A DNA stretch of 18,228 nucleotides from a bacterium (GTDB taxonomy: Bacteria > Eisenbacteria > RBG-16-71-46): assembly GCA_043779265.1 (NCBI GenBank), contig JAYWEM010000139.1:1-18228 (forward strand), written 5' to 3'. Position numbers and translations under genes: made by a program. The notes beneath the pieces are model-generated. The model was not told the DNA's origin and searched no databases. It saw only the letters and a program-made list of their open reading frames with translations. Of the stretch, positions 1-16,028 are shown piece by piece; the stretch's first letter is position 1; each line of letters begins with the position of its first letter.

Positions 1-505
1 CTCACGCCACTCTCCCGACTCTCCGCCTCGCGGCGTTGTCCTTGAACTGAGGCCCCTTCCCTCCACCGGCGTTACCCGGCTTCGTCGGTACTACGAGCCC
101 CTCCGCCACCCGATCCAACCCGGCCTGTCCCTCGCGGGCGTCCGGTTGGAGGTCGCTACCCTCCGCCGCATCGGGCTTCCCGTGTTGCGTTCCATCCCCG
201 TGTGCATGCATGCCGTCGCCACTACCCCGGCGGAACCGTTGGGGCTGTCGCTCATCCTCCCCAGCGGCGGCGGCCTTCCTCCAAATTCAGCGGAGTCGGC
301 TTCCGCATCACCCTTCTCGAGGCCTGCTCGGCGTTCACTCGCGTTACGGCCCGCATGCTCGCCAGGTCACCCTGCGGTGACCCTCTACATCGAAGGCTCC
401 GTCGAGTTCGTCGCCTCCCTCGACGCTCCGATTGCTACCGGCTGGAGCGACAGTTGCCGGGCGGGATTCACACCCGCTGAGGACGTACGCCTTTTCACGG
501 CGCAC
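1..505 (-). mobile_element. Group II intron, 5' part (domains I-III and start of IV), probably IIB-type structure; inserted in an attC site and truncated by the window edge
   Basis: Minus strand starts with canonical GTGCG at 505 (GTGCGCCGTGAAAAGGCGT). Typical domain III at ~106-48 (GCGGAGGGGCTCGTAGTACCGACGAAGCCGGGTAACGCCGGTGGAGGGAAGGGGCCTCA). Id3 stem-loop GCCGACTCC-GCTGAATTT-GGAGGAAGGC has a loop TGAAT (289-285) complementary to the last 5 exon nt ATTCA (510-506). A probable RT start GTG at 5-3 follows GGAGAG. Confidence 0.9.
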
Positions 506-524
506 TGAATAGGTCGGGTTAGGC
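506..524 (-). other. Left arm (R'' plus part of L'') of the attC of cassette 2, interrupted by the intron
   Basis: Minus strand GCCTAAC (RYYYAAC) at 524-518. The extended GTGCTGCCTAAC (529-518) is the perfect 12-nt reverse complement of the cassette start GTTAGGCAGCAC (1060-1049). The intron begins 12 nt after the AAC. Confidence 0.85.
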
Positions 525-570
525 AGCACCACGTGCGCGAGGACTGGACGTCTTGATTCTGTAGCAGGAC

Positions 571-939
571 CTACTTCATGGAGTGAAGGCCGACCTTGTT
601 GCCTTCCGTGTCTACGAAGTGGGCAAAAAAGCCAAAGTCATTGCCGATCTCGGTCTTCGGCACAACTACTGACCCTCCTGCGTGCTCCACTCGGGCAAGC
701 ATTGGGGCCAAGTCGTCTCCACCATTGAGGTATACGAGTGTCCCGTTCTTGGATGGTGAGCCGTCCTCGCTGTGCACTATGGCCCCGCCAACAGCATTCG
801 GGTCGGAGGACAGCATTCCCATCATGATCGGGCCCATGGCCATCGGTTCGATGGTGATACCAAGCACCTTCTCGTAGAAGGACTTGGCGCGGGTGAAGTC
901 TATGACAGGGATCTCAAACCAGCTCACTGCGTGGGCCAT
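571..939 (-). CDS. VOC/glyoxalase/bleomycin-resistance family protein (integron cassette 2)
   Basis: 122 aa: WFEIPVIDFTRAKSFYEKVLG...GGSVVVPKTEIG...FAHFVDTEGNKVGL, a typical VOC fold. RBS AGGAGAG upstream. Lower GC than the host genes. Confidence 0.92.
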   Translation of the reverse strand: MAHAVSWFEIPVIDFTRAKSFYEKVLGITIEPMAMGPIMMGMLSSDPNAVGGAIVHSEDGSPSKNGTLVYLNGGDDLAPMLARVEHAGGSVVVPKTEIGNDFGFFAHFVDTEGNKVGLHSMK

Positions 940-1053
940 GTAGCTCTCCTTGTGGATGAGGGGGGGGGGGGTGAAAAGTAACGGCGTGATTCTGCACTGT
1001 CTGGAGTGAGCGGTAGTTTCGGTCGCCGACCGGGGAACTGAATTGACTGTGCT

Positions 1054-1113
1054 GCCTAACGCGCAGCATCAGCGGCGGCGCGAAGCGCCGTCCGCTGCAT
1101 GCTGTTGTTGGGC
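1054..1113 (-). other. Complete 60-bp attC recombination site of cassette 1
   Basis: Minus strand GCCCAAC-AACAGCATGCAGCGGACGGCGCTTCGCGCCGCCGCTGATGCTGCGC-GTTAGGC. RYYYAAC and GTTRRRY ends, an imperfect palindrome with bulged bases and a short TTCG loop. Starts 4 nt after the HNH stop codon. Confidence 0.95.
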
Positions 1114-1117
1114 GGCG

Positions 1118-1780
1118 TCATCGATCCTTCTTTCCTTGGTTGCATTTCCGACACAGTGTTTGGAGGTTTGCGAGGTCATTCGATCCGCCTCTGGCTACGG
1201 CGACCACATGATCGACCTCAAGCTCCACCGAATGGTCGTTTGAGGGCGCCGCGCCACACTTCGCGCAACGGTAGTTGTCGCGCTTCAAGACAGCCCACCT
1301 GTCCTTCAATGGAATGGTCTCGCGAACCTGCCGGTCTGAGTCCCCGGTGAGGAGTTGCTCGCGGGAGATCCGGCCGTCGTGAAACGCCGCCAGCGCCTCG
1401 CAAGCTCCGCGGACGCTACCCCAGTAGCGCTTGTAGGGCGTCTCCGAGATCCGTTTGCCGAGTTGCGCAATCTGCCTCTTGCCAGGGGGAAACCCGAGTT
1501 CCTTCCAAACTTCTTCGAGGTTCTCGATCAACTGAGCGGGCTCGTGACGCCGCTCACGACCGCCCTCAATTCCGATCAACGCAAGGGCCTTCTTCCACGA
1601 TCCGAAGCGCTCGATGACTGTCGCAGAGTGGGGACGCTTCCCGGGGAGCTTGTCGTATCGCGTGGAAGCGAAGTATCCCTCGCCCAGAGTCCCTGCAGCA
1701 GACTCCAGAGCTTGCAAGAGATCCCCGTCCGTCAGGCGGGTCCGCTTCGCCCCAAGATCGAACTTGAACTCTTCAGTCAC
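1118..1780 (-). CDS. HNH endonuclease with two N-terminal homing-endonuclease-associated-like repeats (integron cassette 1)
   Basis: C-terminal CAKC...LEVDHVVAVARGGSNDLANLQTLCRKCNQGK zinc-HNH motif. Two repeats end in RFGSWKKAL and RYWGSVRGAC. Likely start is GTG 1780 after AGGAG (1795-1791); the ORF-track TTG at 1804 lies inside the recombination core. Confidence 0.9.
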   Translation of the reverse strand: MTEEFKFDLGAKRTRLTDGDLLQALESAAGTLGEGYFASTRYDKLPGKRPHSATVIERFGSWKKALALIGIEGGRERRHEPAQLIENLEEVWKELGFPPGKRQIAQLGKRISETPYKRYWGSVRGACEALAAFHDGRISREQLLTGDSDRQVRETIPLKDRWAVLKRDNYRCAKCGAAPSNDHSVELEVDHVVAVARGGSNDLANLQTLCRKCNQGKKDR

Positions 1781-1798
1781 TTCCGCGTCACTCCTGCC

Positions 1799-1840
1799 GC
1801 CCAACGCGTAGTGGACGGTTCTGCGTAATCAGCTACGCAC
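1799..1840 (-). other. Putative attI site (core GTTGGGC)
   Basis: Minus GTTGGGCGGC (1805-1796) is the perfect 10-nt reverse complement of GCCGCCCAAC at the other end of cassette 1 (1116-1107). No RYYYAAC partner is seen between it and intI, so it is attI-like rather than an attC. The upstream boundary is uncertain. Confidence 0.7.
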
Positions 1841-2005
1841 CCCCGCCCGGTCAGTGTAGTCAGCTTGGCAGATCGCTTCATACTCGAATCCCCCGCTCGC
1901 ATCCGGCCCCCTCGCTCAGCGACACGGCCACCATGTAGCAGGATACGCCGCAGCACGCTGGCGGTGTAGCACCGCCTGGCTCTGTCGGCGTGCCCGACGC
2001 CGCCC

Positions 2006-3100
2006 TCATCCCCACCCCCCATCCAGCGGGCTGCGCACACCGCGGCCGCCGCGGTTCAGCACGTGGGTGTAGATCATGGTCGTGCTCACGTCTCGGTGAC
2101 CCAGCAGCTCCTGGATCGTTCGGATGTCATAGCCCGCCTCGAGGAGATGCGTCGCGAACGAGTGCCGCAGCGTGTGGCACGAAGCGCGCTTCGTGATCCC
2201 GGCGCGCTGCACCGCAGCCCGCACCGCCTTCTGCACCACCGACTCGTGCAGGTGATGCCGACGTTCGAGCCCGGTGGCGGGGTCGCGGTAGTGGCGCGTG
2301 GCGGGGAACACCCACTGCCACGCCAAGTCGAACGCGGCGCGCGGGTACTTTCGCGCCAGCGCGTCGGGCATCTCCACACTGCCACGACCGCCGGCCAGAT
2401 CCTGCGCGTGCTGGGCCCGCACGCGCTCGATCTGCGCGGCGATCTGCGGCACGAGCCGCTTCGGCGGCATGGTCATGCGATCGCGCGCGCCCTTGCCGTC
2501 GCGCACCACGAGTTCGCCGCGCGCGAGATCCACGTCTTTCACGCGCAGCCGACAGCCCTCGAGCAGCCGCAGCCCCGAGCCGTAGAGCAGCGACGCGATC
2601 AGCGCTTCGGGGCCGCGAAGATGCCCGAGCACCGCCGCCACCTCCTCGCGCGTCAGCACCGACGGCACGCGCTCGGGGCGCCGTGCGCGCACCACATCGT
2701 CGAGCCAGCCGATCTCGGTGGCGAGCACATCGCGGTACAGGAACAGCAACGCGCTCAACGCCTGGTTCTGCGTCGAGGCGCTCATCCGACCCTGCGTCGC
2801 CAGGTGCGACAGGAATGCGGTCACTTCGGCGCGTCCCATCTCGGCCGGGTGCCGCTTGCCGTGGAAGAGCACGAAACGGCGCACCCAGCCCACGTACGCC
2901 TTCTCGGTGCGTCTGCTGTAGTGCCGCAGCCGGATCGCGTCGCGCACTCGGTCCAGCAGTCGCGGGGCTGCGGGCGCCGGCGGCGCGGGCGTGACTCGCC
3001 CTGAGCTCGGCGCTTCGCGCACGACCTCGGCCGCAGCCGCGTTCCACGGCGCGAACCGCCACGCATCGTTCGGTTGCCGCACCTGCCACATCGCTTCCAT
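2006..3100 (-). CDS. intI: Integron integrase (tyrosine recombinase, IntI family)
   Basis: [13 protein letters not shown]-terminal domain, [17 protein letters not shown], integron-specific insertion ALARKYPRA...WQWVFPA, and [39 protein letters not shown]. Start taken as ATG 3100 after GGGAG; the start is uncertain. Confidence 0.97.
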
Positions 3101-3221
3101 CACGCGTCTCCCAGGGGCGATCACTCCGGCGCAAACCGCCCCCAACCCTCATCCCCCATCCCGCAACCCGTCAAGCAATACCGCGCGCGCCCACTCGCCC
3201 CACCCCACGCCAAACGAACCC

Positions 3222-3251
3222 TTGCCTCCCTGCACATCCGTGCAGTAGCCT
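3222..3251 (+). promoter_or_regulatory. Sigma70-like promoter (TTGCCT-N18-TAGCCT) with a LexA-box-like palindrome CTGCAC-ATCC-GTGCAG (3230-3245) in the spacer
   Basis: A perfect 6-4-6 palindrome lies between the -35 (3222-3227) and -10 (3246-3251). It fits the TGCNC-N4-GTGCA LexA motif described for Fibrobacter and is one mismatch from the Myxococcus LexA consensus as I recall them. It precedes error-prone polymerase genes. Confidence 0.7.
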
Positions 3252-3266
3252 CCCCCTCGCCAGGTC

Positions 3267-3521
3267 ATGCGAAGCGAAACCATCGACGAGCCCGTGGGTG
3301 TGCGCGCGGATTTCCATGGCGGAGTCATCACCCCGGTGATGTTCCGTCGGAAGAACCGCGACCACCGCGTCACCCGGGTCAACGCGCGGTGGCTCGATCG
3401 TGCGGGGCGCCACCCGAGGTTGTTCTTCTCGGTCACCGACGCCAGCGGCGACGTCTATCAGCTGCAGCTGCAGACCGGCGACATGTTGTGGTGGCTCGAC
3501 TCGGTCTCCCTGGAGGGATGA
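3267..3521 (+). CDS. Small DUF6504 / ImuB C-terminal-like beta-rich protein
   Basis: 84 aa: IDEPVGV...PVMFRRKNRDHRVTRVNARW...FFSVTDASGDVYQL...WWLDSV, the pattern of DUF6504-like proteins. First gene of a dinB/dnaE2 cluster. Confidence 0.78.
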   Translation: MRSETIDEPVGVRADFHGGVITPVMFRRKNRDHRVTRVNARWLDRAGRHPRLFFSVTDASGDVYQLQLQTGDMLWWLDSVSLEG

Positions 3522-3846
3522 TGTCCCGCTCCCCCTCGCTCTCGGCTGCGGCGTCTGGCGGTGCGCAGGATGCACACCGTCACTCGGGCACGAACCCCAC
3601 GGCACCCGTGCGTCCCGAGCACGGCGCCGCAGTCGAGCGCAGCACCGAGTCGGCCGCGCCACCACCGTCGGGAGGGCCCGCGTCCGGACTCGGCATCGCG
3701 GGGATGGCCGGTACGCCCGGCGCGGGCTCCTCTCACGAAACGTACACTCTGAGCCCCCGTGGAACAGATGCCGCTGACCTGAGAGGCTGTGCTGGCCAGA
3801 GGCGAAGGCACTGGCGCGCGACAACGCAAGTGAAGGGGGTCCAACG

Positions 3847-5445
3847 GTGACCAGCATGATTCGGCCAGACCCGGTGGGCGAGTGGTCAGAGGTCAAGCTC
3901 GAGATCATCCGCAAGTACGCGTCAGCCTACTCCAAGATCCTGAGCAGCCAAGCGCGCTTTGAGCACTACTACATCGACGGCTTCGCAGGATCCGGCGTTC
4001 ACCTATCGAAGGCCAGTGGCGAGCTGACTCCCGGCAGTCCGATCAACGCGCTCTACGTGAAGCCGCCATTCCGACGCCACTTCCTGATCGACCTGGACAG
4101 CTCGCAGATCGCCAGCCTGAAGGCGCTGCTCGGTGACCGGCCCGACATCGAACTCTTCGAGGGTGACTGCAATCGTGTGCTGCTCGACAAGGTGCTGCCG
4201 GAGGTCAGGTATGAGCAGTTTCGGCGGGCGCTCTGCCTTCTCGATCCATACGGCTTGCACCTGAACTGGGAGGTCGTCGCGGCGATAGGCAAGACGCGCA
4301 CCATCGACCTCTTCCTCAACTTCCCCATCATGGACATGAGTCGCAACGCGCTCTGGACAGAACCGGACAAGGTCCGCGCCCACGAAGCCGAGCGGATGAC
4401 AGCGTTCTGGGGCGACGAGACATGGCGCGACGCGGCTTATGCTGTCAGCCCACAGGAGAATCTCTTCGGTGAGAAGGCCACCGAGAAACTGCCGAACAGC
4501 GCAATCGTCGAGGCTTTCCGACAGCGCCTCAAGACGGTTGCAGGATTCGAGCACGTACCCGCACCTGTTCCGATGAAGAACAAGACACAGGCAGACATCT
4601 ACTACCTCTTCTTCGCCTCACCCAACGCAACCGCAGGCAAGATTGCCCGCGAGATCTTCGATGCCTCCCGCGGTGGCGGTCCCCGCGGCAGAGGAGCCCC
4701 CATGAGTGACCACTCCGCCATCGAATGGACCGACGCCACGTGGAACCCGGTCACCGGATGCAACAAGGTGAGTCCAGGGTGCAAGCACTGCTATGCGCAG
4801 GTGTTCTCCGAACGCTTCCGCGGCGTGCCGGGGCATCCGTTCGAACAGGGGTTCGACCTGCGCCTGTGGCCCGAGCGCATCGAACTGCCGCTTCGCTGGC
4901 GACAGCCCAAGCTCATCTTCGTCAACTCGATGAGCGACCTGTTCCACGAGCGCGTCCCCGACGAGTTCATCGCGCGCGTGTTCGGCACCATGCGCCAGGC
5001 GTCCTGGCATCGCTTCCAGGTGCTCACCAAGCGCCCCGAGCGCATGGCGCGGTTCGTCCGCGACCACCTCACCGACGGCCCGCCGCGGATCACGCATCCG
5101 AACGTCTGGCTGGGAACGAGTGTCGAGAGCGAGCGCTACGTGGGCCGCGCCGAGATCGTGGCATCGCTCGATGCGGCGGTGCGGTTCCTCTCGTGTGAGC
5201 CGCTGCTCGGCCCGCTCGACCTGCGCCACGTGCTCGGCCGCACGGGCATCAACTGGGTGATCGTCGGCGGCGAGAGTGGCCACGGGGCCCGCCCGATGGA
5301 CGCCGAGTGGGTGCGCGAGATCCGGCGCCAGTGCCGCACGGCCCGCGTGCCGTTCTTCTTCAAGCAGTGGGGCGGGCCGCAGAAGAGCCGCACGGGGCGC
5401 ATACTCGACAAGCGCACCTACGACGGCATGCCGGTGGCGCGGTAG
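3847..5445 (+). CDS. tcmP: In-frame fusion of three-Cys-motif partner protein TcmP (~aa 1-275) and DUF5131/phage Gp37-Gp68 family protein (from Met at 4702)
   Basis: N-part: VGEWSEVKLEIIRKY, YIDGFAGSG (SAM-binding-like), LLDPYG, IYYLFFAS. C-part: SAIEWTDATWNPVTGCNKVSPGCKHCYA, FVNSMSDLFH, LTKRP, SCEPLLG, WVIVGGESG, FFFKQWGG. No stop between them; internal RBS GAGGAG at 4691-4696 before ATG 4702. Confidence 0.88.
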   Translation: MTSMIRPDPVGEWSEVKLEIIRKYASAYSKILSSQARFEHYYIDGFAGSGVHLSKASGELTPGSPINALYVKPPFRRHFLIDLDSSQIASLKALLGDRPDIELFEGDCNRVLLDKVLPEVRYEQFRRALCLLDPYGLHLNWEVVAAIGKTRTIDLFLNFPIMDMSRNALWTEPDKVRAHEAERMTAFWGDETWRDAAYAVSPQENLFGEKATEKLPNSAIVEAFRQRLKTVAGFEHVPAPVPMKNKTQADIYYLFFASPNATAGKIAREIFDASRGGGPRGRGAPMSDHSAIEWTDATWNPVTGCNKVSPGCKHCYAQVFSERFRGVPGHPFEQGFDLRLWPERIELPLRWRQPKLIFVNSMSDLFHERVPDEFIARVFGTMRQASWHRFQVLTKRPERMARFVRDHLTDGPPRITHPNVWLGTSVESERYVGRAEIVASLDAAVRFLSCEPLLGPLDLRHVLGRTGINWVIVGGESGHGARPMDAEWVREIRRQCRTARVPFFFKQWGGPQKSRTGRILDKRTYDGMPVAR

Positions 5446-5447
5446 CT

Positions 5448-6674
5448 GTGGAGCCCACGCCCACCCACCCCCGCTCGGTCCTTCACGTCGACATCGACGC
5501 GTTCTTCGCCAGCATCGAGCAGCAACGAGACCCGCGGCTGCAGGGTCGGCCGGTCATCGTGGGCAATGGCGTGATCGCGTCGTGCTCCTACGAGGCGAGG
5601 CGGTTCGGGCTCAAGGCGGGCATGCCGCTCTCCGAGGCGCGCCGGCGCTGCCCCGAGGTGGTGATCCTCGATGGGCACGCGCAGATCTACCGCTGCTACG
5701 CCGAGCGCATCTTCGAACACTGCCGCGCGCTGTCGCCCGACGTCGAGACGTATCTCGATGAGGCCTACTTGGAGCTCACGGGCACCGAACGCGCGCACGG
5801 CGGCGACCTGCTGGCGGCGGCGGCGCGGCTGCGGCGCGACGTGCAAGAAGAGACCGGCCTCACGGTCACCTGCGGCCTGGGGCCCAATCGCATGCTGGCC
5901 AAGCTGGCGGGCAAGACGGTCAAGCCCGACGGGCTCGCGGCGGTGTCGGCCGAGGAGGCCGAGGAGTTCCTGGTGGCGCGGCCGATCGAGCAACTGGCGG
6001 GCGTGGGCCACGCGCACGCGCGCACGCTGCGCAGCATGAACCTGCGGATTATTGGAGAACTGCGCGCGCTGCCGATCGGCACGCTCGAGGCATTGTTCGG
6101 CGCGCCGGGCCGGCTGCTGTTCGAACGCTGCCGCGGCCGCGACACGGCGCCGGTGATGGCGCGCGAGGTGCCGGTGTCGCTCTCTCGCGAGACGTCGTTC
6201 CACGAGGACACATCCGACCCGCACATCGTCGAAGGCATGCTCGAGTACCTGGTGGGCCGCGCGTGCCGCGCCTGCCGCGAGCGCGGCCTGTCGCCGCGCA
6301 CGGTGGCGGTGCGCCTGCGCTGGAGCGATGGCGAGTGGGCCGAGCAAGCGCGCACGTTGGCCCAGCCCTCGGCCGTGGACCCGGTGGTGCTGGCACTGGC
6401 GCGCGACGTGCTCTCGCGGCTCGACACGCGGCGCGTCACGCTGCACGCGCTGGGCGTGGTGCTGTCGCAGTTCGTCTCGGGCGCCGCCGAGCAGGGCGCG
6501 CTGTTCGATGAACGAGAGGCCGGCCGACGCGCGGCGCTGTTCGAGGCGCTCGATGACGTGCGCGGAGCGTTCGGCCACGGCGCGGTGCTCTCGGGCCGCG
6601 CGCTGCACCTGAAGGGCCGCGTGAGGCAGGATCGCTACGGGCTCGTGCTGCGCACGCCTTCGTTGACGCAATAG
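5448..6674 (+). CDS. dinB: Y-family DNA polymerase (DinB / Pol IV-like)
   Basis: HVDIDAFFASIE, CSYEARRFG, YLDEAYL, NRMLAKLA...KPDG, and clamp-binding-like QGALF (6492-6506). GTG start 2 nt after the upstream stop. Confidence 0.93.
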   Translation: MEPTPTHPRSVLHVDIDAFFASIEQQRDPRLQGRPVIVGNGVIASCSYEARRFGLKAGMPLSEARRRCPEVVILDGHAQIYRCYAERIFEHCRALSPDVETYLDEAYLELTGTERAHGGDLLAAAARLRRDVQEETGLTVTCGLGPNRMLAKLAGKTVKPDGLAAVSAEEAEEFLVARPIEQLAGVGHAHARTLRSMNLRIIGELRALPIGTLEALFGAPGRLLFERCRGRDTAPVMAREVPVSLSRETSFHEDTSDPHIVEGMLEYLVGRACRACRERGLSPRTVAVRLRWSDGEWAEQARTLAQPSAVDPVVLALARDVLSRLDTRRVTLHALGVVLSQFVSGAAEQGALFDEREAGRRAALFEALDDVRGAFGHGAVLSGRALHLKGRVRQDRYGLVLRTPSLTQ

Positions 6675-6678
6675 CGAG

Positions 6679-6708
6679 TTGACAAATAATCAAGTGCGAA
6701 AATAACCT
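6679..6708 (+). promoter_or_regulatory. Sigma70 promoter TTGACA-N18-TAACCT with an overlapping inverted repeat TTGA-N7-TCAA (6679-6693)
   Basis: Consensus -35 in a conspicuously AT-rich patch directly upstream of an HTH antitoxin-like gene. Confidence 0.7.
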
Positions 6709-6752
6709 TGGAGCCACCATGGATGAGGACCCGAGAGGATGGAGGCGAGTCG

Positions 6753-7238
6753 ATGAAGTGCACGCAGTGCGGGGCCGCGATGAAGGCGCGCAAGGAGAAC
6801 CACCGCTACGACGAGTGCGGCCTCAAGCACGTCACGTTGGTGGGCGTGCAGGTCAGTCGCTGCCCCAAGTGCGGCGACCACGAGATCTCGATCCCCCGGA
6901 TCGAGGGGCTGCACCGATTGATCGCCCGCGTTCTGATCGACAAGGCGACCCGGTTCACCGGCGACGAGGTCCGCTTCCTCCGAAAGAACCTCGGCTGGTC
7001 GGGATCGGACTTCGCCAAGCACATGGGTGTGGCCGATGAGACCGTCTCACGCTGGGAGAACGACGCAGCCCCGATCGGCCCGCAGGCCGATCGTCTGCTC
7101 CGCCTGATGGTCGCCCAAGGCAGGCTCACGACGAGCTATCCCGCCGAGCGCCTGACGCGGATCGACGCCCGCAAGGCGAAGGTCACGCGCCTCCAAGTGG
7201 AGTCACGACACGACCAGTGGGAGCTGTCGGCATCGTGA
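6753..7238 (+). CDS. MqsA-family antitoxin-like protein (YgiT-type zinc finger plus XRE HTH)
   Basis: MKCTQCG...CPKCGD zinc finger; HTH EVRFLRKNLGWSGSDFAKHMGVADETVSRWEND; RBS GGAGG upstream of ATG 6753. Confidence 0.88.
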   Translation: MKCTQCGAAMKARKENHRYDECGLKHVTLVGVQVSRCPKCGDHEISIPRIEGLHRLIARVLIDKATRFTGDEVRFLRKNLGWSGSDFAKHMGVADETVSRWENDAAPIGPQADRLLRLMVAQGRLTTSYPAERLTRIDARKAKVTRLQVESRHDQWELSAS

Positions 7239-7311
7239 AGGAGGCCCGCATGTCCTCGTCCAGGGCGATCCTCCCTCGCCGCGGCTGACGGGTCTCGCCC
7301 ATAGGCACCCC

Positions 7312-10300
7312 ATGCCCTTCACTCCCCTTCGCGTCCGCTCGCACGGCACCCTCCTCGCAGGCGTCGCCTCGCCCGAGGCGCTCGCCGAACGCGCCGCCGA
7401 ACTCGGCCACTCGGCGCTCGCGCTGACCGATCGCGACAACCTCTATCTGTCGATTCGCTTCCTCACCGCGTGTGCCGCCACGGGGCTCCAGGCGCTGCCG
7501 GGCGCCGAACTCACGGCACGCGATGCCGCCCCCGGCGAGTCGGTGCCGCGCGTGCTGCTGCTGGCGTTCGATCGCCGCGGCTGGGCCACGCTGTGCGCGC
7601 TCCTCACGGCGCGCCATCTCGAGGCCGACTTCGACCTGGTGCCCGCGCTCGGCGCCTCACACGCGGGGCTGCATGTGATCGCCGAGTCGGTGACGCTCGC
7701 CGCAGCGCTGCTCGCCGCGGGCGTCCCGGCCGCCATGCGCAGCGCCGATGCGTCGCACCGCCCGCTCACGCATCGAGGCGGGTTGTGGCTCGGGGTGCGC
7801 GGCATCGCGGCCGAACGCGCCGGGCTGCGCGATCGCTTGGCCGCGGCGTGGCGGCTCGGCGTGCCGGCGGTCGCGACGGGCGATGTGTGCCTGCTGGTGC
7901 CGGGCGATCACGAGGCGCACCGCGTCGCGGTCACCGCGGCGGCGGGCGAGCGCCTGGAGCGCATGCCGCCCACGGCGTTCGCCTCCCGTGAGGCATGGCT
8001 CGCCTCGCCCGCCGAATGGACGCGCCGCATCCGCGCCATGTGCGCCGCGGCCGGCTGCGCCGAGGCGGCCGATGGGCTGCTCGCCGAGAACGAGGCGCTG
8101 GTCTCGCGCAGCCGCTTCGAACTCGAACTGGGCTCGCCCATCTTCCCGCACGCGCCGCTGCCGCAGGGCGTCACGCCGGTGGCCGAACTGCGGCGACAGG
8201 CCGAAGCGGGACTCGCGCGGCGATTCCCGGCGAGTCGCGCACTCTCGGTGCGCGGCGCCGCGCGCGCGCGCCTCGAATCCGAACTGGCGCTGATCGCGCA
8301 CATGGGGTTCACCGACTACTTCCTGCTGGTGGCCTCGATCGTCGGGTTCGCGAGAGAGCGCGGCATCCCCACGGTGGGCCGCGGTTCGGGCGCCAGCAGC
8401 ATCGTCGCCTACGCGCTCGGGGTGACCAACGTGGACCCGATCCGCTACGGGCTCTGCTTCGAGCGGTTCCTGCATCCGCAGCGGCGCGACTGCCCCGACC
8501 TCGACATCGACCTGTGCTGGCAGCGCCGCGACGAGGTGATCGCGTTCGTCTACGAGGCCTACGGCCACGACCGCGTCGCGATGATCTCCACGCACAGCAC
8601 GCTGGGCGCGCGCTCGGCGTTTCGAGAGACCGCCAAGGTGCTGGGCCTGCCGCTGCCGCGCGTCAACCAACTGGCGCGGCGCGTGCCACGGGACCTTTCG
8701 GCGAGCGCGCTCGAGGACGCGCTCTCGGGCCGCACGCCGCACGCGCTGGGCCCCGAGTTCGCCGAGCCGCGCGTGCGAGAGGCGCTGCGGTTGGCCGCTC
8801 GCCTGGCCGGTGCGCCGCGCCACTTGTCGGTGCACTGCGGCGGACTGGTGATCGCCGATCGGCCACTCACCCACTACCTGCCGTTGGAGCGCAGCGCCAA
8901 GGGCGTGGTGGTGTCGCAGTTCGAGATGCGCGCGGTCGAGGCGATCGGGCTCGTGAAGATGGACCTGCTCGGCAACCGCGCGCTGAGCACGATCGGCGAG
9001 TGCGTCTCGCTCGCCGCGCACGACGCCGATTCGGCGGCGGCGGGGCACGATGCGCGCGGCACACCGCTGCCCTCGCCCGACGACATCCCCGAGGACGACG
9101 CGGTCACCGCGGCCGCGGTGGCGCGCGGCGACACGCTCAACACGTTCCAGCTCGAGTCGCCCGCCATGCGCAACCTGCTGCGCATGCTGCGCGCGTCCAC
9201 GTTGGACGAGACGGTGGCGGCGGTGGCGCTGGTGCGGCCGGGCCCCGCCGAGTCCGGGATGAAAGAGGCGTTCTGCCGCCGGCACCGAGGTCTCGAGCCC
9301 GATCGCTTCGCGCACGAACGCCTGCGCGCGCCGCTCGCCGACACGCACGGGCTGCTCCTTTATGAAGAGGACTGCATGCGCGTGATGCACGCGCTGTGCG
9401 GCATGCCGCTGGCCGAGGGCGAAACCCTGCGGCGCGCCATCGGCAAGGCCAAGGACGACGACGAGCGCGCGTTCCTGGAGCGCGGGTTCCTGGCGCAGGC
9501 ACGCGGCGCGGGCGTCGATGAGCCGAGTGCGCGCGCCGTGTGGCGCGAGCTGCTGCGGTTCGCCGCGTACGCGTTCTGCAAGGCGCACGCGGCCGGCTAC
9601 GGCGCGTTGGGCTGGCAGAGCGCCTACTACCGCGCGCGCTTCCCCGCCGCATGGGCGGTGGGCATGCTGCACCACCACGCCGGCATGTACCCGACGTGGG
9701 TGCACGTCGAGGACCTGCGCCAGGGCGCGGTCGATCGCGCGCCCGTCACGTTCCACGCGCCGTGCGTGCAGCGCTCGCGGTGGTCGAGCGCGCTCGAAGG
9801 CGCCGCGGTGCGCGTGGGGCTGCACCGCGTGGCGGGGCTGGCGCATGCGACCGGCGAGCGCCTGGTGGCGGCGCGCGCTGAGCGTGCGTTCGCGAGCCTC
9901 GCCGATCTGGCCGACCGCGTGCGGCCGACGCCGCCCGAGCTGGAGGCGCTGATCCTCGCGGGCGCACTCGATACGCTGCCCGCCGCGCCGACGCGAGCGA
10001 GCCTGCTGCTCGAGGCGCGCGTGCACGCCGCGATCGAGTCCTCGGCCGGCGGCCGCGCGAGACGCGCACTCGGCGCCGCCGCGCCGGCATTGGTCGCCGC
10101 CGATGGCGCGAGGCTCGCGCCCGCCGAGGCGGCGCCCCGCCCGGGCGGCGAGGCGCTGCCTCAGTTGGCCGAGCTGCCGCTCGCCGATCGCGTGCGCGGC
10201 GAGTTCCGCGCCACGGGCCTGTGGTTCTCGGGTCACCCGCTCGAGGTGCTGGCACCCGCGCTCTCGCACGTGGGCACCACGCCCGCCGCCGAAGTCGAGC

Positions 10301-10695
10301 GCCATGCCGGCCGCCGCATCGCGGTGGTCGGGCTGCCGTGCGCCGCACGCCGCGTCGAGGCCAAGCGAGGCGGCATGGTCCTGTTCACCACGCTCGCCGA
10401 TCGCACGGGGCTCGTCGAGTGCGTGCTGTTCCCCGACGCCTACGCGCGGTTCGCACCCGCGATGCGCGCCGAGATCGTGCGCGCCGAGGGGCGGCTCGAC
10501 GACAAGCTCGGCGCGTTCACGCTGGTCGTCGATCGCGCCGAGGGCGCCGGCGCCGCCGCATCGAGCGACACGCACTGGGGCGCATGGGGCGACGCGGGGC
10601 CGGCGTCGGCCTACCGAGACGAGCGCCCGATGGGACCGGTCGAGCCGCACCCGGGCTCTCGCAACCGCGCGCCGAGAGCGGCGCCGGCGGCTTGA
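7312..10695 (+). CDS. dnaE2: DNA polymerase III alpha paralogue, probable error-prone DnaE2-like
   Basis: PHP domain (ALTDRDNL), GRGSGASS, FERFLHPQR..PDLDID, KMDLLG, RPGP, FCKAHA and a C-terminal OB fold (TLADRTGLVECVLF). Degenerate PHP ligands and clustering with dinB indicate a non-replicative copy. Confidence 0.9.
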   Translation: MPFTPLRVRSHGTLLAGVASPEALAERAAELGHSALALTDRDNLYLSIRFLTACAATGLQALPGAELTARDAAPGESVPRVLLLAFDRRGWATLCALLTARHLEADFDLVPALGASHAGLHVIAESVTLAAALLAAGVPAAMRSADASHRPLTHRGGLWLGVRGIAAERAGLRDRLAAAWRLGVPAVATGDVCLLVPGDHEAHRVAVTAAAGERLERMPPTAFASREAWLASPAEWTRRIRAMCAAAGCAEAADGLLAENEALVSRSRFELELGSPIFPHAPLPQGVTPVAELRRQAEAGLARRFPASRALSVRGAARARLESELALIAHMGFTDYFLLVASIVGFARERGIPTVGRGSGASSIVAYALGVTNVDPIRYGLCFERFLHPQRRDCPDLDIDLCWQRRDEVIAFVYEAYGHDRVAMISTHSTLGARSAFRETAKVLGLPLPRVNQLARRVPRDLSASALEDALSGRTPHALGPEFAEPRVREALRLAARLAGAPRHLSVHCGGLVIADRPLTHYLPLERSAKGVVVSQFEMRAVEAIGLVKMDLLGNRALSTIGECVSLAAHDADSAAAGHDARGTPLPSPDDIPEDDAVTAAAVARGDTLNTFQLESPAMRNLLRMLRASTLDETVAAVALVRPGPAESGMKEAFCRRHRGLEPDRFAHERLRAPLADTHGLLLYEEDCMRVMHALCGMPLAEGETLRRAIGKAKDDDERAFLERGFLAQARGAGVDEPSARAVWRELLRFAAYAFCKAHAAGYGALGWQSAYYRARFPAAWAVGMLHHHAGMYPTWVHVEDLRQGAVDRAPVTFHAPCVQRSRWSSALEGAAVRVGLHRVAGLAHATGERLVAARAERAFASLADLADRVRPTPPELEALILAGALDTLPAAPTRASLLLEARVHAAIESSAGGRARRALGAAAPALVAADGARLAPAEAAPRPGGEALPQLAELPLADRVRGEFRATGLWFSGHPLEVLAPALSHVGTTPAAEVERHAGRRIAVVGLPCAARRVEAKRGGMVLFTTLADRTGLVECVLFPDAYARFAPAMRAEIVRAEGRLDDKLGAFTLVVDRAEGAGAAASSDTHWGAWGDAGPASAYRDERPMGPVEPHPGSRNRAPRAAPAA

Positions 10696-14189: not shown

Positions 14190-15554
14190 TCATCGGCCGG
14201 CGCCCGCCGAGGCTGCAGCGGCAGCCGCGCGGCCGTGCGCGGGCATCATGCGCACGGCCAGTTCGCCCTGGCGGGCGTAGTCGATGGCCTCGCCCAGGAT
14301 GCGGGCGGCCTCCTGGGGCGCGTGGAACCCCATCGAGTTCTCGGCGTTGATGAAGTCGATCCGCCACTGCGCCTTGCGCTGCAGCGCGTGCACGCCGGCC
14401 CGGCTGAGAGCCGCACTGTCGGCGCCGGCCTTGCGCGCGTCCTTCACGGCGTCGAACAGCCCGATCAGCGCATCCTCGGCGCGCAGCAACAGCTTCTTGT
14501 TGCGGCTCTGGATCTGCTCGGCGCGCTGCTTCATCTCCTCGGCCGGGAACGCATGGCATCCGAGGCAGGCGCGATCGACATTCAGGAGTGGGCTGCGGAT
14601 GTGGTGATCGCTGATCTTGACCGCGCCGTCTCGCATGTACGGCATATGGCAGTCGGCGCACGCCACACCACTTCGCGCATGGATGCCCTGGCTCCACAGC
14701 TCGAACTCGGGATGTTGCGCCTTGAGCACCGGGGCGCGGGTCTCGGCGTGCGTCCAGTCGGCGAACCCGATGCTGTCGTAGTGCGCCTCGAGGTTCTCCA
14801 TCTTGAGGCCGCGGAACCACGGGTAGGTGACCACCTTGTCGGGCTTGCGGAAGTAGTACTCGACGTGGCACTGGCCGCAGACGTAGCTGCGCATCTCCTG
14901 CCGCGTTGCGTCTCGATTGGGATCGTAGTCGGCGATGCCTTCTGAGGCCTTGAGAGCGGCGATGCCCTTGATGAAGCCCGGGCGCGTCACGCGCAGCGCC
15001 ATGCTCGTCGGGTCGTGGCAGTCGATGCAGGCGACCGGGTGCTCCACCAGCTCGCGCGCCTCCGCCCACGGCTTGGCGCTCACGATCTCGAAGCCCTTCA
15101 TCACATCGCCGCCGCCCGCCTTGCGGTACGCCGGGATGATCGACGCGTGGCAGTGCAGGCACGAGCCCGGCTGCTTGAACTCATGGATGCGGCGCGTCTC
15201 GTCCTGGTCGAGGAGCGTGTAGGCGTGGCCGCGCTCCTCCTTGAACTCCACGCCGAACGCGTAGCCCGAGAAGATGCGCAGCAGCCGCGGATCGTCCTCG
15301 AGACGCGAGAACGCCTCGCTGCCGCCATAGCGTGTGCGTTCCATGTCGACGGTGCGCTTGTAGCCGTCGTACTGACGCGGGAACACCTTGCCCCACTCGG
15401 CGGGGTCCACTGTGTCCTCGGTCAGCGAGGCGAGCGGCACGTAGGCGCGCGAGCCCTCGGCCTTGCGGTCGCGGATGTTCACGAGCAGCGCCGCGATGCC
15501 GAAGGCCACGGCAGCCGTCAGGGCGATGAGGCCGATGAGCATGGGTCTCGACAT
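14190..15554 (-). CDS. nrfA: Ammonia-forming cytochrome c nitrite reductase c552 (CxxCH variant at heme 1)
   Basis: Five heme motifs (CLHCH, CIDCH, CGQCH, CADCH, CLGCH); EERGH, CHVEYYF, KAQHPEFE, AENSMGFHAP; N-terminal hydrophobic anchor. Confidence 0.95.
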   Translation of the reverse strand: MSRPMLIGLIALTAAVAFGIAALLVNIRDRKAEGSRAYVPLASLTEDTVDPAEWGKVFPRQYDGYKRTVDMERTRYGGSEAFSRLEDDPRLLRIFSGYAFGVEFKEERGHAYTLLDQDETRRIHEFKQPGSCLHCHASIIPAYRKAGGGDVMKGFEIVSAKPWAEARELVEHPVACIDCHDPTSMALRVTRPGFIKGIAALKASEGIADYDPNRDATRQEMRSYVCGQCHVEYYFRKPDKVVTYPWFRGLKMENLEAHYDSIGFADWTHAETRAPVLKAQHPEFELWSQGIHARSGVACADCHMPYMRDGAVKISDHHIRSPLLNVDRACLGCHAFPAEEMKQRAEQIQSRNKKLLLRAEDALIGLFDAVKDARKAGADSAALSRAGVHALQRKAQWRIDFINAENSMGFHAPQEAARILGEAIDYARQGELAVRMMPAHGRAAAAAASAGAGR

Positions 15555-15563
15555 GGCGGTCTC

Positions 15564-16028
15564 CTAGGGTCCGTGCCCGACGCCGGCGTGGCAGTCCACG
15601 CAATGCAGGTCGCCGGCGCGGGGGCCCGAGTGCGCATCCGCCGAGGCGGGGAACACCCCCTCGACGAGCGTGCGGTGACAGTCGATGCAGTTGTGTTCGA
15701 GATTGCGGGCGTTGTGGGGTGTGATGCGGATGTGCTCGGGGTAGTCCTGGAGCGTGAAGCGGACCGAGTGATTCCAGCCGTTGATCGCCTTGGAGATGAG
15801 CTTGGGGATGGGCGCATGCGGCGTGTGGCAGTCGTTGCAGGTCGCGACGCTCTGGTGCGGCGACTTCTGCCACGAGGCCAAGTGCTCGCGCATCACATGG
15901 CAGTTGGCGCAGGCGGCGGGGTCATTGCTCATATACGAGAGCCCCTGCGCGTCGACGAACGTGTAGATCCCGAGGCCCAGAACGGCGCCCGCGAGCACAG
16001 CGGCCAGGATCGAGAGTGGGGAGCGCAT
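15564..16028 (-). CDS. nrfH: Tetraheme cytochrome c nitrite reductase small subunit
   Basis: N-terminal TM helix, SYMSNDPAACANCHVM, CNDCH, CIDCH, CVDCHAGVGHG; directly upstream of nrfA. Confidence 0.95.
   Translation of the reverse strand: MRSPLSILAAVLAGAVLGLGIYTFVDAQGLSYMSNDPAACANCHVMREHLASWQKSPHQSVATCNDCHTPHAPIPKLISKAINGWNHSVRFTLQDYPEHIRITPHNARNLEHNCIDCHRTLVEGVFPASADAHSGPRAGDLHCVDCHAGVGHGP

What the first reader, a model, noticed from the sequence alone, without database searches (positions are those of the whole stretch)
3222..10695. Candidate expanded SOS mutasome: DUF6504 + TcmP::DUF5131 + active DinB + DnaE2 under one LexA-like box
Seen: five co-oriented genes follow a promoter with a perfect palindrome, and the DUF5131 stop (5445) is 2 nt from the dinB start, implying translational coupling. 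Known: imuA-imuB-dnaE2 and dinB-dnaE2 cassettes are SOS mutagenesis modules, while the TcmP/DUF5131 pair has no well-established function that I know of and is not a recognised mutasome part. Inference: a SAM-binding enzyme plus an Fe-S radical-SAM-like enzyme may act with the translesion polymerases in lesion processing or base modification, which would be an undescribed damage-response system.
Basis: partly seen in the sequence, partly recalled or inferred. Interest (0 to 1): 0.82.

Follow-up and report, generated by a model that had tools for sequence, protein, structure and literature searches.

The report
SOS polymerase operon carrying swappable cargo
An uncultured bacterium's error-prone DNA polymerase operon, likely switched on by DNA damage, holds a swappable two-gene passenger (a catalogued but untested phage-defence candidate) and a conserved, predicted RNA fold that matches no Rfam family; the passenger is likely co-induced cargo, not a new part of the polymerase complex.

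Summary
The genes, the in-frame TcmP::DUF5131 fusion, the 2-nt gap and the palindrome are all real. The palindrome is a well-supported SOS box: 53 of 61 orthologous promoters carry it, as do this genome's lexA and recA. The organism is probably Ca. Eisenbacteria. The conserved unit is only DUF6504-like gene–dinB–dnaE2, a known mutasome type.

TcmP/DUF5131 is PADLOC's untested candidate PDC-M41 and behaves as cargo. DUF5131 lies upstream of this dinB in 14 of 79 family genomes and 0 of 45 others. TcmP is swapped, lost or broken between close relatives, and the fusion occurs in 0 of 36 comparable loci. The same slot elsewhere holds other defence candidates.

DUF5131 is long-resident, under purifying selection, and folds most like spore photoproduct lyase. 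The pair also sits in dinB/dnaE2 or lexA operons of other lineages, and an earlier unchecked note of this scan reports a Bacteroidota case.

New here: a covarying two-domain RNA structure (3540–3737), single-copy and confined to one family. In relatives it lies in frame inside the 5′ end of dinB. In this genome the cargo landed between it and the polymerase domain.

The parts
3222..3251 (+). Predicted sigma70 promoter (-35 at 3222-3227, -10 at 3246-3251) with the SOS box in its spacer
   Evidence: TTG...TA arrangement conserved around the box in relatives; too weak for the consensus scanner
3230..3245 (.). LexA box CTGCAC-N4-GTGCAG (family consensus TACTGCACATATGTGCAGTA)
   Evidence: 53 of 61 X promoters vs 0 of 231 controls; the genome's top four PSSM hits are a second X-dinB cassette, recA, lexA and this site; lexA sits directly upstream of X in G038
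3267..3521 (+). X: 84-aa all-beta DUF6504-like protein, likely a standalone ImuB-C-type subunit
   Evidence: 13 of 25 relatives hit PF20114; ESM Atlas 0.93 to a cluster with 22% DUF6504; seven strands, pLDDT 94.5; invariant W75, R13, R45; direct homology to ImuB tails not shown
3518..3850 (+). 110-aa low-complexity leader ORF: the former 5' end of dinB, cut off by the cargo insertion; starts on X's stop and stops on TcmP's start
   Evidence: In 21 of 26 relatives where dinB follows the element directly, this frame runs open into dinB; overlaps seen in sequence
3540..3640 (+). Structured RNA module 1: predicted three-way junction with invariant loop GGCACCC
   Evidence: 20 of 32 pairs change on both sides in 31 sequences, 0/500 shuffles, 89% paired vs 30-50% when slid; single copy; 36/59 family genomes, 0/90 others; no Rfam match at E<=5
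3663..3737 (+). Structured RNA module 2: predicted long hairpin with invariant TCGCGGGGAT apex
   Evidence: 15 of 26 pairs change on both sides in 26 sequences; 32/59 family genomes, 0/90 others
3739..4698 (+). Exchangeable segment carrying TcmP
   Evidence: Similarity to same-genus G002 stops at about 3740 and resumes at 4699; a contig in run X3 (another study) joins 3738 to 4699 with 27 nt between
3847..4701 (+). TcmP domain (PDC-M41A type; SAM-binding-like YIDGFAGSG and LDPYG motifs), GC3 0.79, lower than the flanking genes
   Evidence: TIGR04474 E 8e-61; PDC-M41A E 5e-66; motifs; GC3
4702..5445 (+). DUF5131 (PDC-M41B/M30B) radical-SAM-like domain, C-x6-C-x2-C, with its own ATG and an AGAGGAG RBS at 4690-4696 inside the fusion
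   Evidence: PF07505 E 5e-92; Foldseek best hit spore photoproduct lyase, E 7.6e-4, TM 0.49; GC3 0.915, dN/dS 0.09-0.28
5448..6674 (+). dinB: Y-family polymerase with intact catalytic residues D15, D104, E105, a clamp-like motif QGALF and a RecA-NT-like tail
   Evidence: PRK02406-type hits; aligned to E. coli Pol IV; residues conserved in 31 sequences; tail resembles this genome's RecA N-terminus by eye only
6663..6690 (+). Internal sigma70-like promoter site upstream of the antitoxin
   Evidence: 10 of 12 consensus matches
6753..7238 (+). Orphan MqsA-family antitoxin; cargo in the dinB-dnaE2 junction
   Evidence: TIGR03830 above cut-off; a relative in run X3 has 779 other letters in place of 6677-6729; other relatives hold VOC, HicB, PaaI, ParD or membrane genes here
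7312..10695 (+). dnaE2-type C-family polymerase (D398, D400, D551), second DnaE of the genome
   Evidence: TIGR00594 and PRK05672 hits; motifs; other dnaE pieces on C95 and C127

Best explanation
This is a likely LexA-repressed mutagenesis operon whose conserved core is X (likely standalone ImuB-C), a DinB with intact catalytic residues and DnaE2, and TcmP/DUF5131 is a mobile passenger that would be co-induced by DNA damage but likely acts on its own rather than as a polymerase subunit. Mechanism. (1) RecA-triggered LexA cleavage would free the promoter at 3222-3251 (box shown; induction inferred). (2) Ribosomes would be handed along X -> leader ORF -> TcmP::DUF5131 -> dinB through overlapping or adjacent stop and start codons (geometry shown; coupling inferred). 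(3) DinB would bind the clamp and RecA, and X would bridge to the DnaE2 PHP domain, as modelled for DnaE2-[ImuB-C]-PolY-RecA (from literature; not tested here). (4) In this family both junctions are landing sites for accessory genes (shown), which would gain SOS-timed expression. (5) DUF5131 is the long-resident half and TcmP the rapidly replaced half (shown). This fits a SAM-dependent nucleic-acid-modifying defence module with a variable specificity partner (inferred). (6) The covarying RNA, originally in dinB's 5' coding region (shown), likely damps or gates translation of the downstream gene unless ribosomes arrive from X (inferred).
For: Core conservation: X-dinB-dnaE2 with X-dinB gaps under 100 nt in 13 of 14 non-family loci; this dinB in 124 of 206 phylum genomes; no ImuA or ImuB found in G000 with one query each. 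Cargo behaviour: DUF5131 linked in 14 of 79 family and 0 of 45 other genomes; scattered on the DinB tree (12 changes vs 13.1 shuffled). TcmP is M41A type in G000 but M30A type in G002 beside a 94% identical DUF5131, absent in G019, G104, G115, G132 and run X3, and broken in G124, G125, G129; its GC3 is 0.66-0.79 vs 0.89-0.97 for the polymerases. The same slot holds PDC-M45B/C, a type II methyltransferase and ParE plus antitoxin in other genomes. Outside the family TcmP is the only common neighbour of DUF5131 (114 of 157 loci). The fusion is in 0 of 36 other TcmP-upstream loci, and DUF5131 keeps its own RBS.
Against: DUF5131 is intact and under purifying selection also between two TcmP-less copies (G104/G115, dN/dS 0.14), has host-like GC3, and the cassette copies cluster on the tree (15 of an 18-member group with SH-aLRT 98; quick tree). 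That is more than a neutral passenger needs. Its best fold match is a DNA-repair lyase. The pair recurs in dinB-dnaE2 junctions of two Acidobacteria-related genomes with different TcmP types (L100, L234) and in two lexA operons (L290, L334). PDC status is guilt-by-embedding only: no activity is shown in the passages I read. No RNA data were available.
Confidence: 0.6

Rival explanations
1. DUF5131 is a radical-SAM damage-reversal enzyme related to spore photoproduct lyase. It has been recruited repeatedly into SOS operons because it repairs a lesion in parallel with the polymerases, with TcmP an optional partner.
For: Foldseek ranks SPL structures 1, 2, 4 and 5; RadicalSAM.org lists DUF5131 and SPL in the same megacluster 5; intact without TcmP in 4 genomes plus run X3, whereas TcmP without DUF5131 is broken in 3 of 3; two insertion sites in the family, before and after the RNA element; SOS-linked copies in other lineages.
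Against: Only 3 of 157 mostly non-Eisenbacteria DUF5131 loci are SOS-linked, while 114 of 157 have TcmP (many loci are short: 94 of 160 had full flanks). The fold match is weak (E 7.6e-4, 10% identity). L290's lexA operon also carries a methyl-directed restriction enzyme, which points to defence cargo.
Confidence: 0.22
2. One reading: the SAM-binding TcmP and the Fe-S DUF5131 are working parts of an expanded mutasome and act together with DinB and DnaE2 at lesions.
For: Single promoter box, a coupling chain into dinB, long residency of DUF5131, and a second lineage with the pair between dinB and dnaE2.
Against: Absent from about four fifths of family loci and from all 45 other genomes with the same dinB. 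TcmP subtypes are swapped freely. The fusion is a one-strain read-through. Unrelated genes (VOC, PaaI, DUF2461, TA modules) occupy the same junctions.
Confidence: 0.08
3. The pair is a selfish or neutral insertion tolerated at a permissive junction. SOS co-expression is incidental, and the fusion may be an early step of decay.
For: Frequent loss and pseudogenes in the slot; patchy distribution; diverse landing sites elsewhere.
Against: dN/dS 0.09-0.28 for DUF5131; start/stop coupling is kept at the new junctions in G000, G104 and G115.
Confidence: 0.1

Closest known systems
DnaE2-[ImuB-C]-PolY-RecA module (fourth DnaE2B group, e.g. Tessaracoccus; PMC12926913) and Geobacter lexA-imuB-C-polY (PMC6511836)
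   Same: Small standalone beta protein, an active Y-family polymerase with a RecA-NT-like tail, DnaE2, LexA control, no ImuA/ImuB detected
   Different: The paper's passage says this module is found only in Actinobacteria and does not mention Eisenbacteria. Here the junctions carry cargo and an in-frame RNA element. I did not place this DnaE2 in their tree.
[quoted passage not shown]
   Same: Three-gene SOS mutagenesis cassette with an about 80-aa standalone protein and no imuA
   Different: ImuY is predicted inactive and ImuB-C lies between imuY and dnaE2; here DinB keeps its catalytic residues and X comes first
PADLOC phage-defence candidates PDC-M41 and PDC-M30 (TcmP + DUF5131; Payne et al., bioRxiv 10.1101/2024.01.29.577857)
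   Same: Both components hit with E 5e-66 and 4e-100, in the A-B order
   Different: Fused in frame here and embedded in an SOS operon rather than in RM/BREX/DISARM; A subunits of M41 and M30 type are interchanged beside one B lineage
Spore photoproduct lyase (SplB) radical-SAM family
   Same: Best structural match of the DUF5131 model; same RadicalSAM.org megacluster
   Different: 10% identity, TM 0.49; C-x6-C-x2-C instead of the canonical C-x3-C-x2-C (the canonical motif is recalled); no sequence hit to any PDB chain
Fibrobacter-type LexA box TGCNC-N4-GTGCA (recalled, not confirmed in any paper read)
   Same: The core here reads TGCAC-N4-GTGCA
   Different: No paper with Eisenbacteria and LexA was found; the one paper opened gave no motif

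Membership tests
DnaE2-[ImuB-C]-PolY-RecA mutasome | Y-family polymerase with intact active site | tested here: met
   D15, D104 invariant and E105 near-invariant in 31 sequences; aligned to Pol IV
DnaE2-[ImuB-C]-PolY-RecA mutasome | RecA-NT motif in the polymerase tail | tested here: inconclusive
   L364, D369, R372, G376 invariant; likeness to this genome's RecA N-terminus judged by eye only
DnaE2-[ImuB-C]-PolY-RecA mutasome | Standalone ImuB-C protein | tested here: inconclusive
   Size, all-beta fold, conserved C-terminal Trp and Arg residues, context and lack of a PDB match all fit. A 128-sequence profile hit a small protein between PolY and dnaE2 over only 22 aa (E 3e-5 among 10 targets) and none of 3 ImuB-like proteins; hhalign probabilities 3.8% and 0.2%
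DnaE2-[ImuB-C]-PolY-RecA mutasome | Second, non-replicative DnaE in the operon; no imuA/imuB in the genome | tested here: met
   Other dnaE pieces on C95/C127; no ImuA or ImuB hit with one query each in a 92% complete genome
DnaE2-[ImuB-C]-PolY-RecA mutasome | DnaE2 falls in the DnaE2B clade | not tested
   No reference DnaE2 tree was built
LexA (SOS) regulon | Palindromic box shared with lexA and recA promoters, overlapping the promoter | tested here: met
LexA (SOS) regulon | LexA binding and damage induction | not testable with these tools
   Needs EMSA and RNA data
PDC-M41 (TcmP + DUF5131) | Adjacent A and B components matching the PADLOC models | tested here: met
   both in one ORF
PDC-M41 (TcmP + DUF5131) | Anti-phage activity | not testable with these tools
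   PDCs are described as candidates; the supplementary tables were not seen
Radical SAM, SPL-like | Three-Cys cluster motif and partial TIM barrel | tested here: inconclusive
   C20, C27, C30 conserved with non-canonical spacing; Foldseek E 7.6e-4; cluster binding not testable
Any Rfam RNA family | Covariance-model match of 3480-3880 | tested here: not met
   None at gathering or at E<=5; no tRNA/tmRNA
REP/MITE-like dispersed repeat | Multiple copies per genome | tested here: not met
   One copy in G000; one per genome in 36 of 37 genomes, two in G116, which has two dinB cassettes

The most novel reading that the evidence does not exclude
Eisenbacteria of this family regulate translesion synthesis through a new cis-acting RNA built into the coding start of dinB. 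They also use the operon as an SOS-timed platform for DUF5131, a lyase-like radical-SAM enzyme acting on damaged or foreign DNA that swaps TcmP specificity partners. This would give both a new RNA class and the first physiological trigger for PDC-M41/M30.
Probability: 0.25. Interest if true: 0.8.

Novelty: new variant of a known kind. Interest (0 to 1): 0.5.

Why it matters
TcmP/DUF5131 is very widespread (about 9,300 genome stretches estimated) and has no known reaction. This locus supplies testable handles: a defined inducing signal, natural alleles with, without and with swapped TcmP, and a natural fusion that can be expressed as one protein. The work also gives an SOS box for an uncultured phylum and suggests a mutasome type reported only from Actinobacteria reaches further. 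The RNA element is the least explained part: a strongly covarying structure held in frame inside a polymerase gene would be an unusual way to control mutagenesis.

Tried and rejected
DinB-DUF5131 complex prediction: no verdict; it is not used for or against binding. No RNA holder was listed among sequencing runs, so expression is untested. Foldseek found no fold for X; pdb_via_wide was not run. PDB sequence searches with the fusion and with a DUF5131 profile were empty. Direct X-to-ImuB homology was not obtained. A viral-contig pattern scan gave 50 loci, none matching the RNA model. An alternative short hairpin in module 1 is compatible with the alignment but has no covariation. A pairing between the two invariant loops cannot be tested, as all positions are invariant, and module 1 occurs without module 2 in several genomes. 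The careful DUF5131 tree and its one-clade test did not finish, so only the quick tree is used. TcmP/DUF5131 as an integron cassette: the window's attC-bearing cassettes lie on the other side of intI and I saw no attC at the cargo borders (judged by eye). An assembly error behind the fusion: not seen in X1/X2 contigs, which may be the source data. Literature: 'DUF5131' gave 1 paper; PDC-M41/PDC-M30/PF07505/Gp37Gp68/TIGR04474 gave 5 listings, not opened; TcmP searches were swamped by unrelated acronyms; Eisenbacteria + LexA gave 0; the dinB RNA-motif search gave no relevant title among 12 of 64 listed.


Full report
OBSERVATION. The ORF list and family scans confirm five co-oriented genes: an 84-aa ORF X (3267-3521), a 532-aa TcmP::DUF5131 ORF (3847-5445), dinB (5448-6674), an MqsA-family antitoxin (6753-7238) and dnaE2 (7312-10695). 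The fused ORF matches both halves of PADLOC PDC-M41. An integron (intI 2006-3145, minus strand) with HNH and VOC cassettes and a group II intron 5' end lies to the left. Named relatives point to Ca. Eisenbacteria (L085 title; P0132; atlas); for G000 itself this is an inference.

THE BOX. CTGCAC-N4-GTGCAG at 3230-3245 is kept between diverging flanks in same-genus G002. A degenerate form occurs upstream of X in 53 of 61 loci with at least 80 nt of flank, against 0 of 231 windows inside dinB. A matrix built without this window ranks, genome-wide, a second X-dinB-DUF72 cassette (C99), recA, lexA and this site as the top four. G038 has lexA directly before X. This is strong comparative support for a LexA box. 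The likeness to the Fibrobacter box is recalled and was not confirmed. It is the only box in the window, and a separate sigma70-like site precedes mqsA.

THE CORE. This dinB is found in 37 of 41 relatives and 124 of 206 phylum genomes. In 14 loci from other families the X-dinB gap is 4-94 nt in 13 and 224 nt in one, and dnaE2 usually follows closely. DinB keeps D15, D104 and E105, and DnaE2 keeps its three aspartates. No ImuA or ImuB was found with one query each. X is all-beta with an invariant late Trp; 13 of 25 relatives hit DUF6504, and 535 representatives match its profile, the 150 listed being 50-200 aa. Aravind et al. (PMC3765255, passages) describe standalone ImuB-C with these traits, most often beside dinB. 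Timinskas and Venclovas (PMC6511836, passages and section 17) and PMC12926913 (passages and section 20) describe active PolY + ImuB-C with or without DnaE2; PMC8072749 (passages) covers the Deinococcus form. My direct homology tests of X against ImuB tails were weak or negative, so 'X is ImuB-C' is likely but not shown.

THE CARGO. In family f1 both junctions vary from a few bases to over 4 kb. They hold VOC, PaaI, DUF2461, HicB, ParE plus antitoxin, MqsA, PDC-M45B/C and a type II methyltransferase (28 and 10 chosen ORFs were annotated, not all). Comparing coordinates, DUF5131 lies co-oriented within 3.3 kb upstream of this dinB in 14 of the 79 family genomes that have it (14 of 17 family genomes with any DUF5131) and in 0 of 45 other genomes; short contigs make 14 a floor. 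Presence is scattered on a 76-sequence DinB tree (12 changes; 112 of 500 shuffles as low). On a 108-sequence quick tree, 15 cassette-type copies fall in one 18-member group that roughly tracks genera. DUF5131 has host-like GC3 and dN/dS 0.09-0.28 in 11 pairs. TcmP has low GC3 in all six loci measured. G002 carries an M30A-type TcmP beside a 94% identical DUF5131, with borders at 3740 and 4699. A contig from an independent study joins 3738 to 4699 with 27 nt between. TcmP is missing in G019, G104, G115 and G132, unknown in G001, G122 and G151 (contig ends), and broken without DUF5131 in G124, G125 and G129.

THE FUSION. None of 36 other loci with TcmP upstream on the same strand is fused. Of the 120 best hits of 292-931 aa, 107 are fusions in the reverse order and 4 scored in this order, two of them full length. 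DUF5131 keeps its own ATG and RBS. The fusion is best read as a recent read-through; that such fusions recur suggests the two proteins work together.

OUTSIDE THE FAMILY. Among 157 further DUF5131 loci (the best 80 from each of two partial scans, minus three cassette loci L085, L260, L262; L261 also proved family-type), TcmP is the only common neighbour (114 loci). Three are SOS-linked: L100 (dinB-TcmP-DUF5131-dnaE2, Terriglobia), L334 (lexA-TcmP-DUF5131) and L290 (lexA, a methyl-directed restriction enzyme, a hypothetical gene, TcmP, DUF5131). Of 30 loci from relatives of L100's genome, two have dnaE2 downstream: L100 itself and L234, which has another TcmP type. So SOS linkage recurs but is a small minority, and I have no formal enrichment test. 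The DUF5131 model (pLDDT 83.6) matches spore photoproduct lyase best but weakly, in line with RadicalSAM.org (PMC9477430, one passage). Payne et al. (passages and section 10) define PDCs as candidates for future study. PDC-M41 is not named in the main text, and the supplement, which may bear on it, was not seen.

THE RNA ELEMENT. The X-dinB spacer holds two conserved modules in 36 and 34 of 50 complete family junctions and 0 of 14 others (motif counts; one module-1 match, L053, was mis-anchored). On hand-drawn structures, 20 of 32 and 15 of 26 pairs change on both sides, above all 500 shuffles and all slid controls (the alignments used 31 and 26 of those sequences, leaving out rows with odd indels or near-duplicates; one measure for module 2, further pair types, did not beat the shuffles). 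Frequent G-U pairs favour the + strand. The loops are invariant even at third codon positions, so the constraint is on nucleotides. Covariance models find one copy in G000 and matches in 36/59 and 32/59 family genomes but 0/90 others (training sequences included), and Rfam has none. In 21 of 26 loci where dinB follows directly, the frame through the element is open into dinB (five rows dropped: two false motif matches, one mis-anchored, two with other cargo). The naive binomial P is 9e-7, but kin are not independent, although the spacer lengths differ. In 8 of 11 element-free family loci dinB starts on X's stop codon, and 11 of 24 element-bearing ones use the same overlapping ATG. So the element sits just inside dinB. 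In G000 the cargo landed between element and polymerase domain, leaving a 110-aa leader that ends on TcmP's start; in G019 and G122 DUF5131 lies before the element. Its function is inferred only: most likely translational gating.

VERDICT. The five-gene mutasome is not. The locus is a known mutasome type whose junctions act as an SOS-controlled cargo site. The TcmP/DUF5131 pair is a catalogued candidate, and earlier notes of this scan found it at many other sites. What remains new is the long residency of DUF5131 with partner swapping, the SOS box, and the in-frame RNA. Novelty: new variant of a known kind. Interest 0.5.

Noticed in passing
window 2-3145 (minus strand): Integron with intI on the same strand as its cassettes: HNH (1118-1804) and VOC (571-939) cassettes with attC-like sites, and a group II intron 5' end (Rfam RF02003, 339-479) at the second attC. 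intI is divergent from X across the LexA box; shared control was not tested.
   Followed up: partly
G000 C13:6199 and C13:5272-6024: The alpha/beta hydrolase that lies divergent from X in most family relatives is on another contig here, preceded by a degenerate copy of the same box core. The ancestral promoter region was probably split by a rearrangement or by the integron's arrival.
   Followed up: partly
G000 C99:321-2765 (minus strand): Second SOS cassette: box, X paralogue (84 aa), a distant dinB (34% identity) and a DUF72-like gene (named from its sequence by recall).
   Followed up: partly
G000 C100:20480 and C165:10406: Further box hits upstream of a 172-aa and an about 800-aa ORF, possible additional SOS regulon members; not annotated.
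   Followed up: no
dinB-dnaE2 junction in L037, L039, L040, L041, L042, L049, L050, L052, L054: A recurring 180-240 aa membrane-type protein with an RHRPEALCFAL motif; the three copies scanned had no Pfam hit. It often sits with a VOC gene and a PaaI thioesterase.
   Followed up: no
L194 (G136:C136): The X-dinB slot is expanded to about 5 kb with two TcmP copies and PDC-M45B/C.
   Followed up: partly
run X4, joint 3254->7311; run X3, joint 3251->6730: Weak contig joints linking the promoter box to dnaE2 or to mqsA in other organisms; short sides, possibly chance. The second was not reproduced as a box.
   Followed up: partly
window 14190-16028 (minus strand): nrfH-nrfA cytochrome c nitrite reductase pair; unrelated to the finding.
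   Followed up: no
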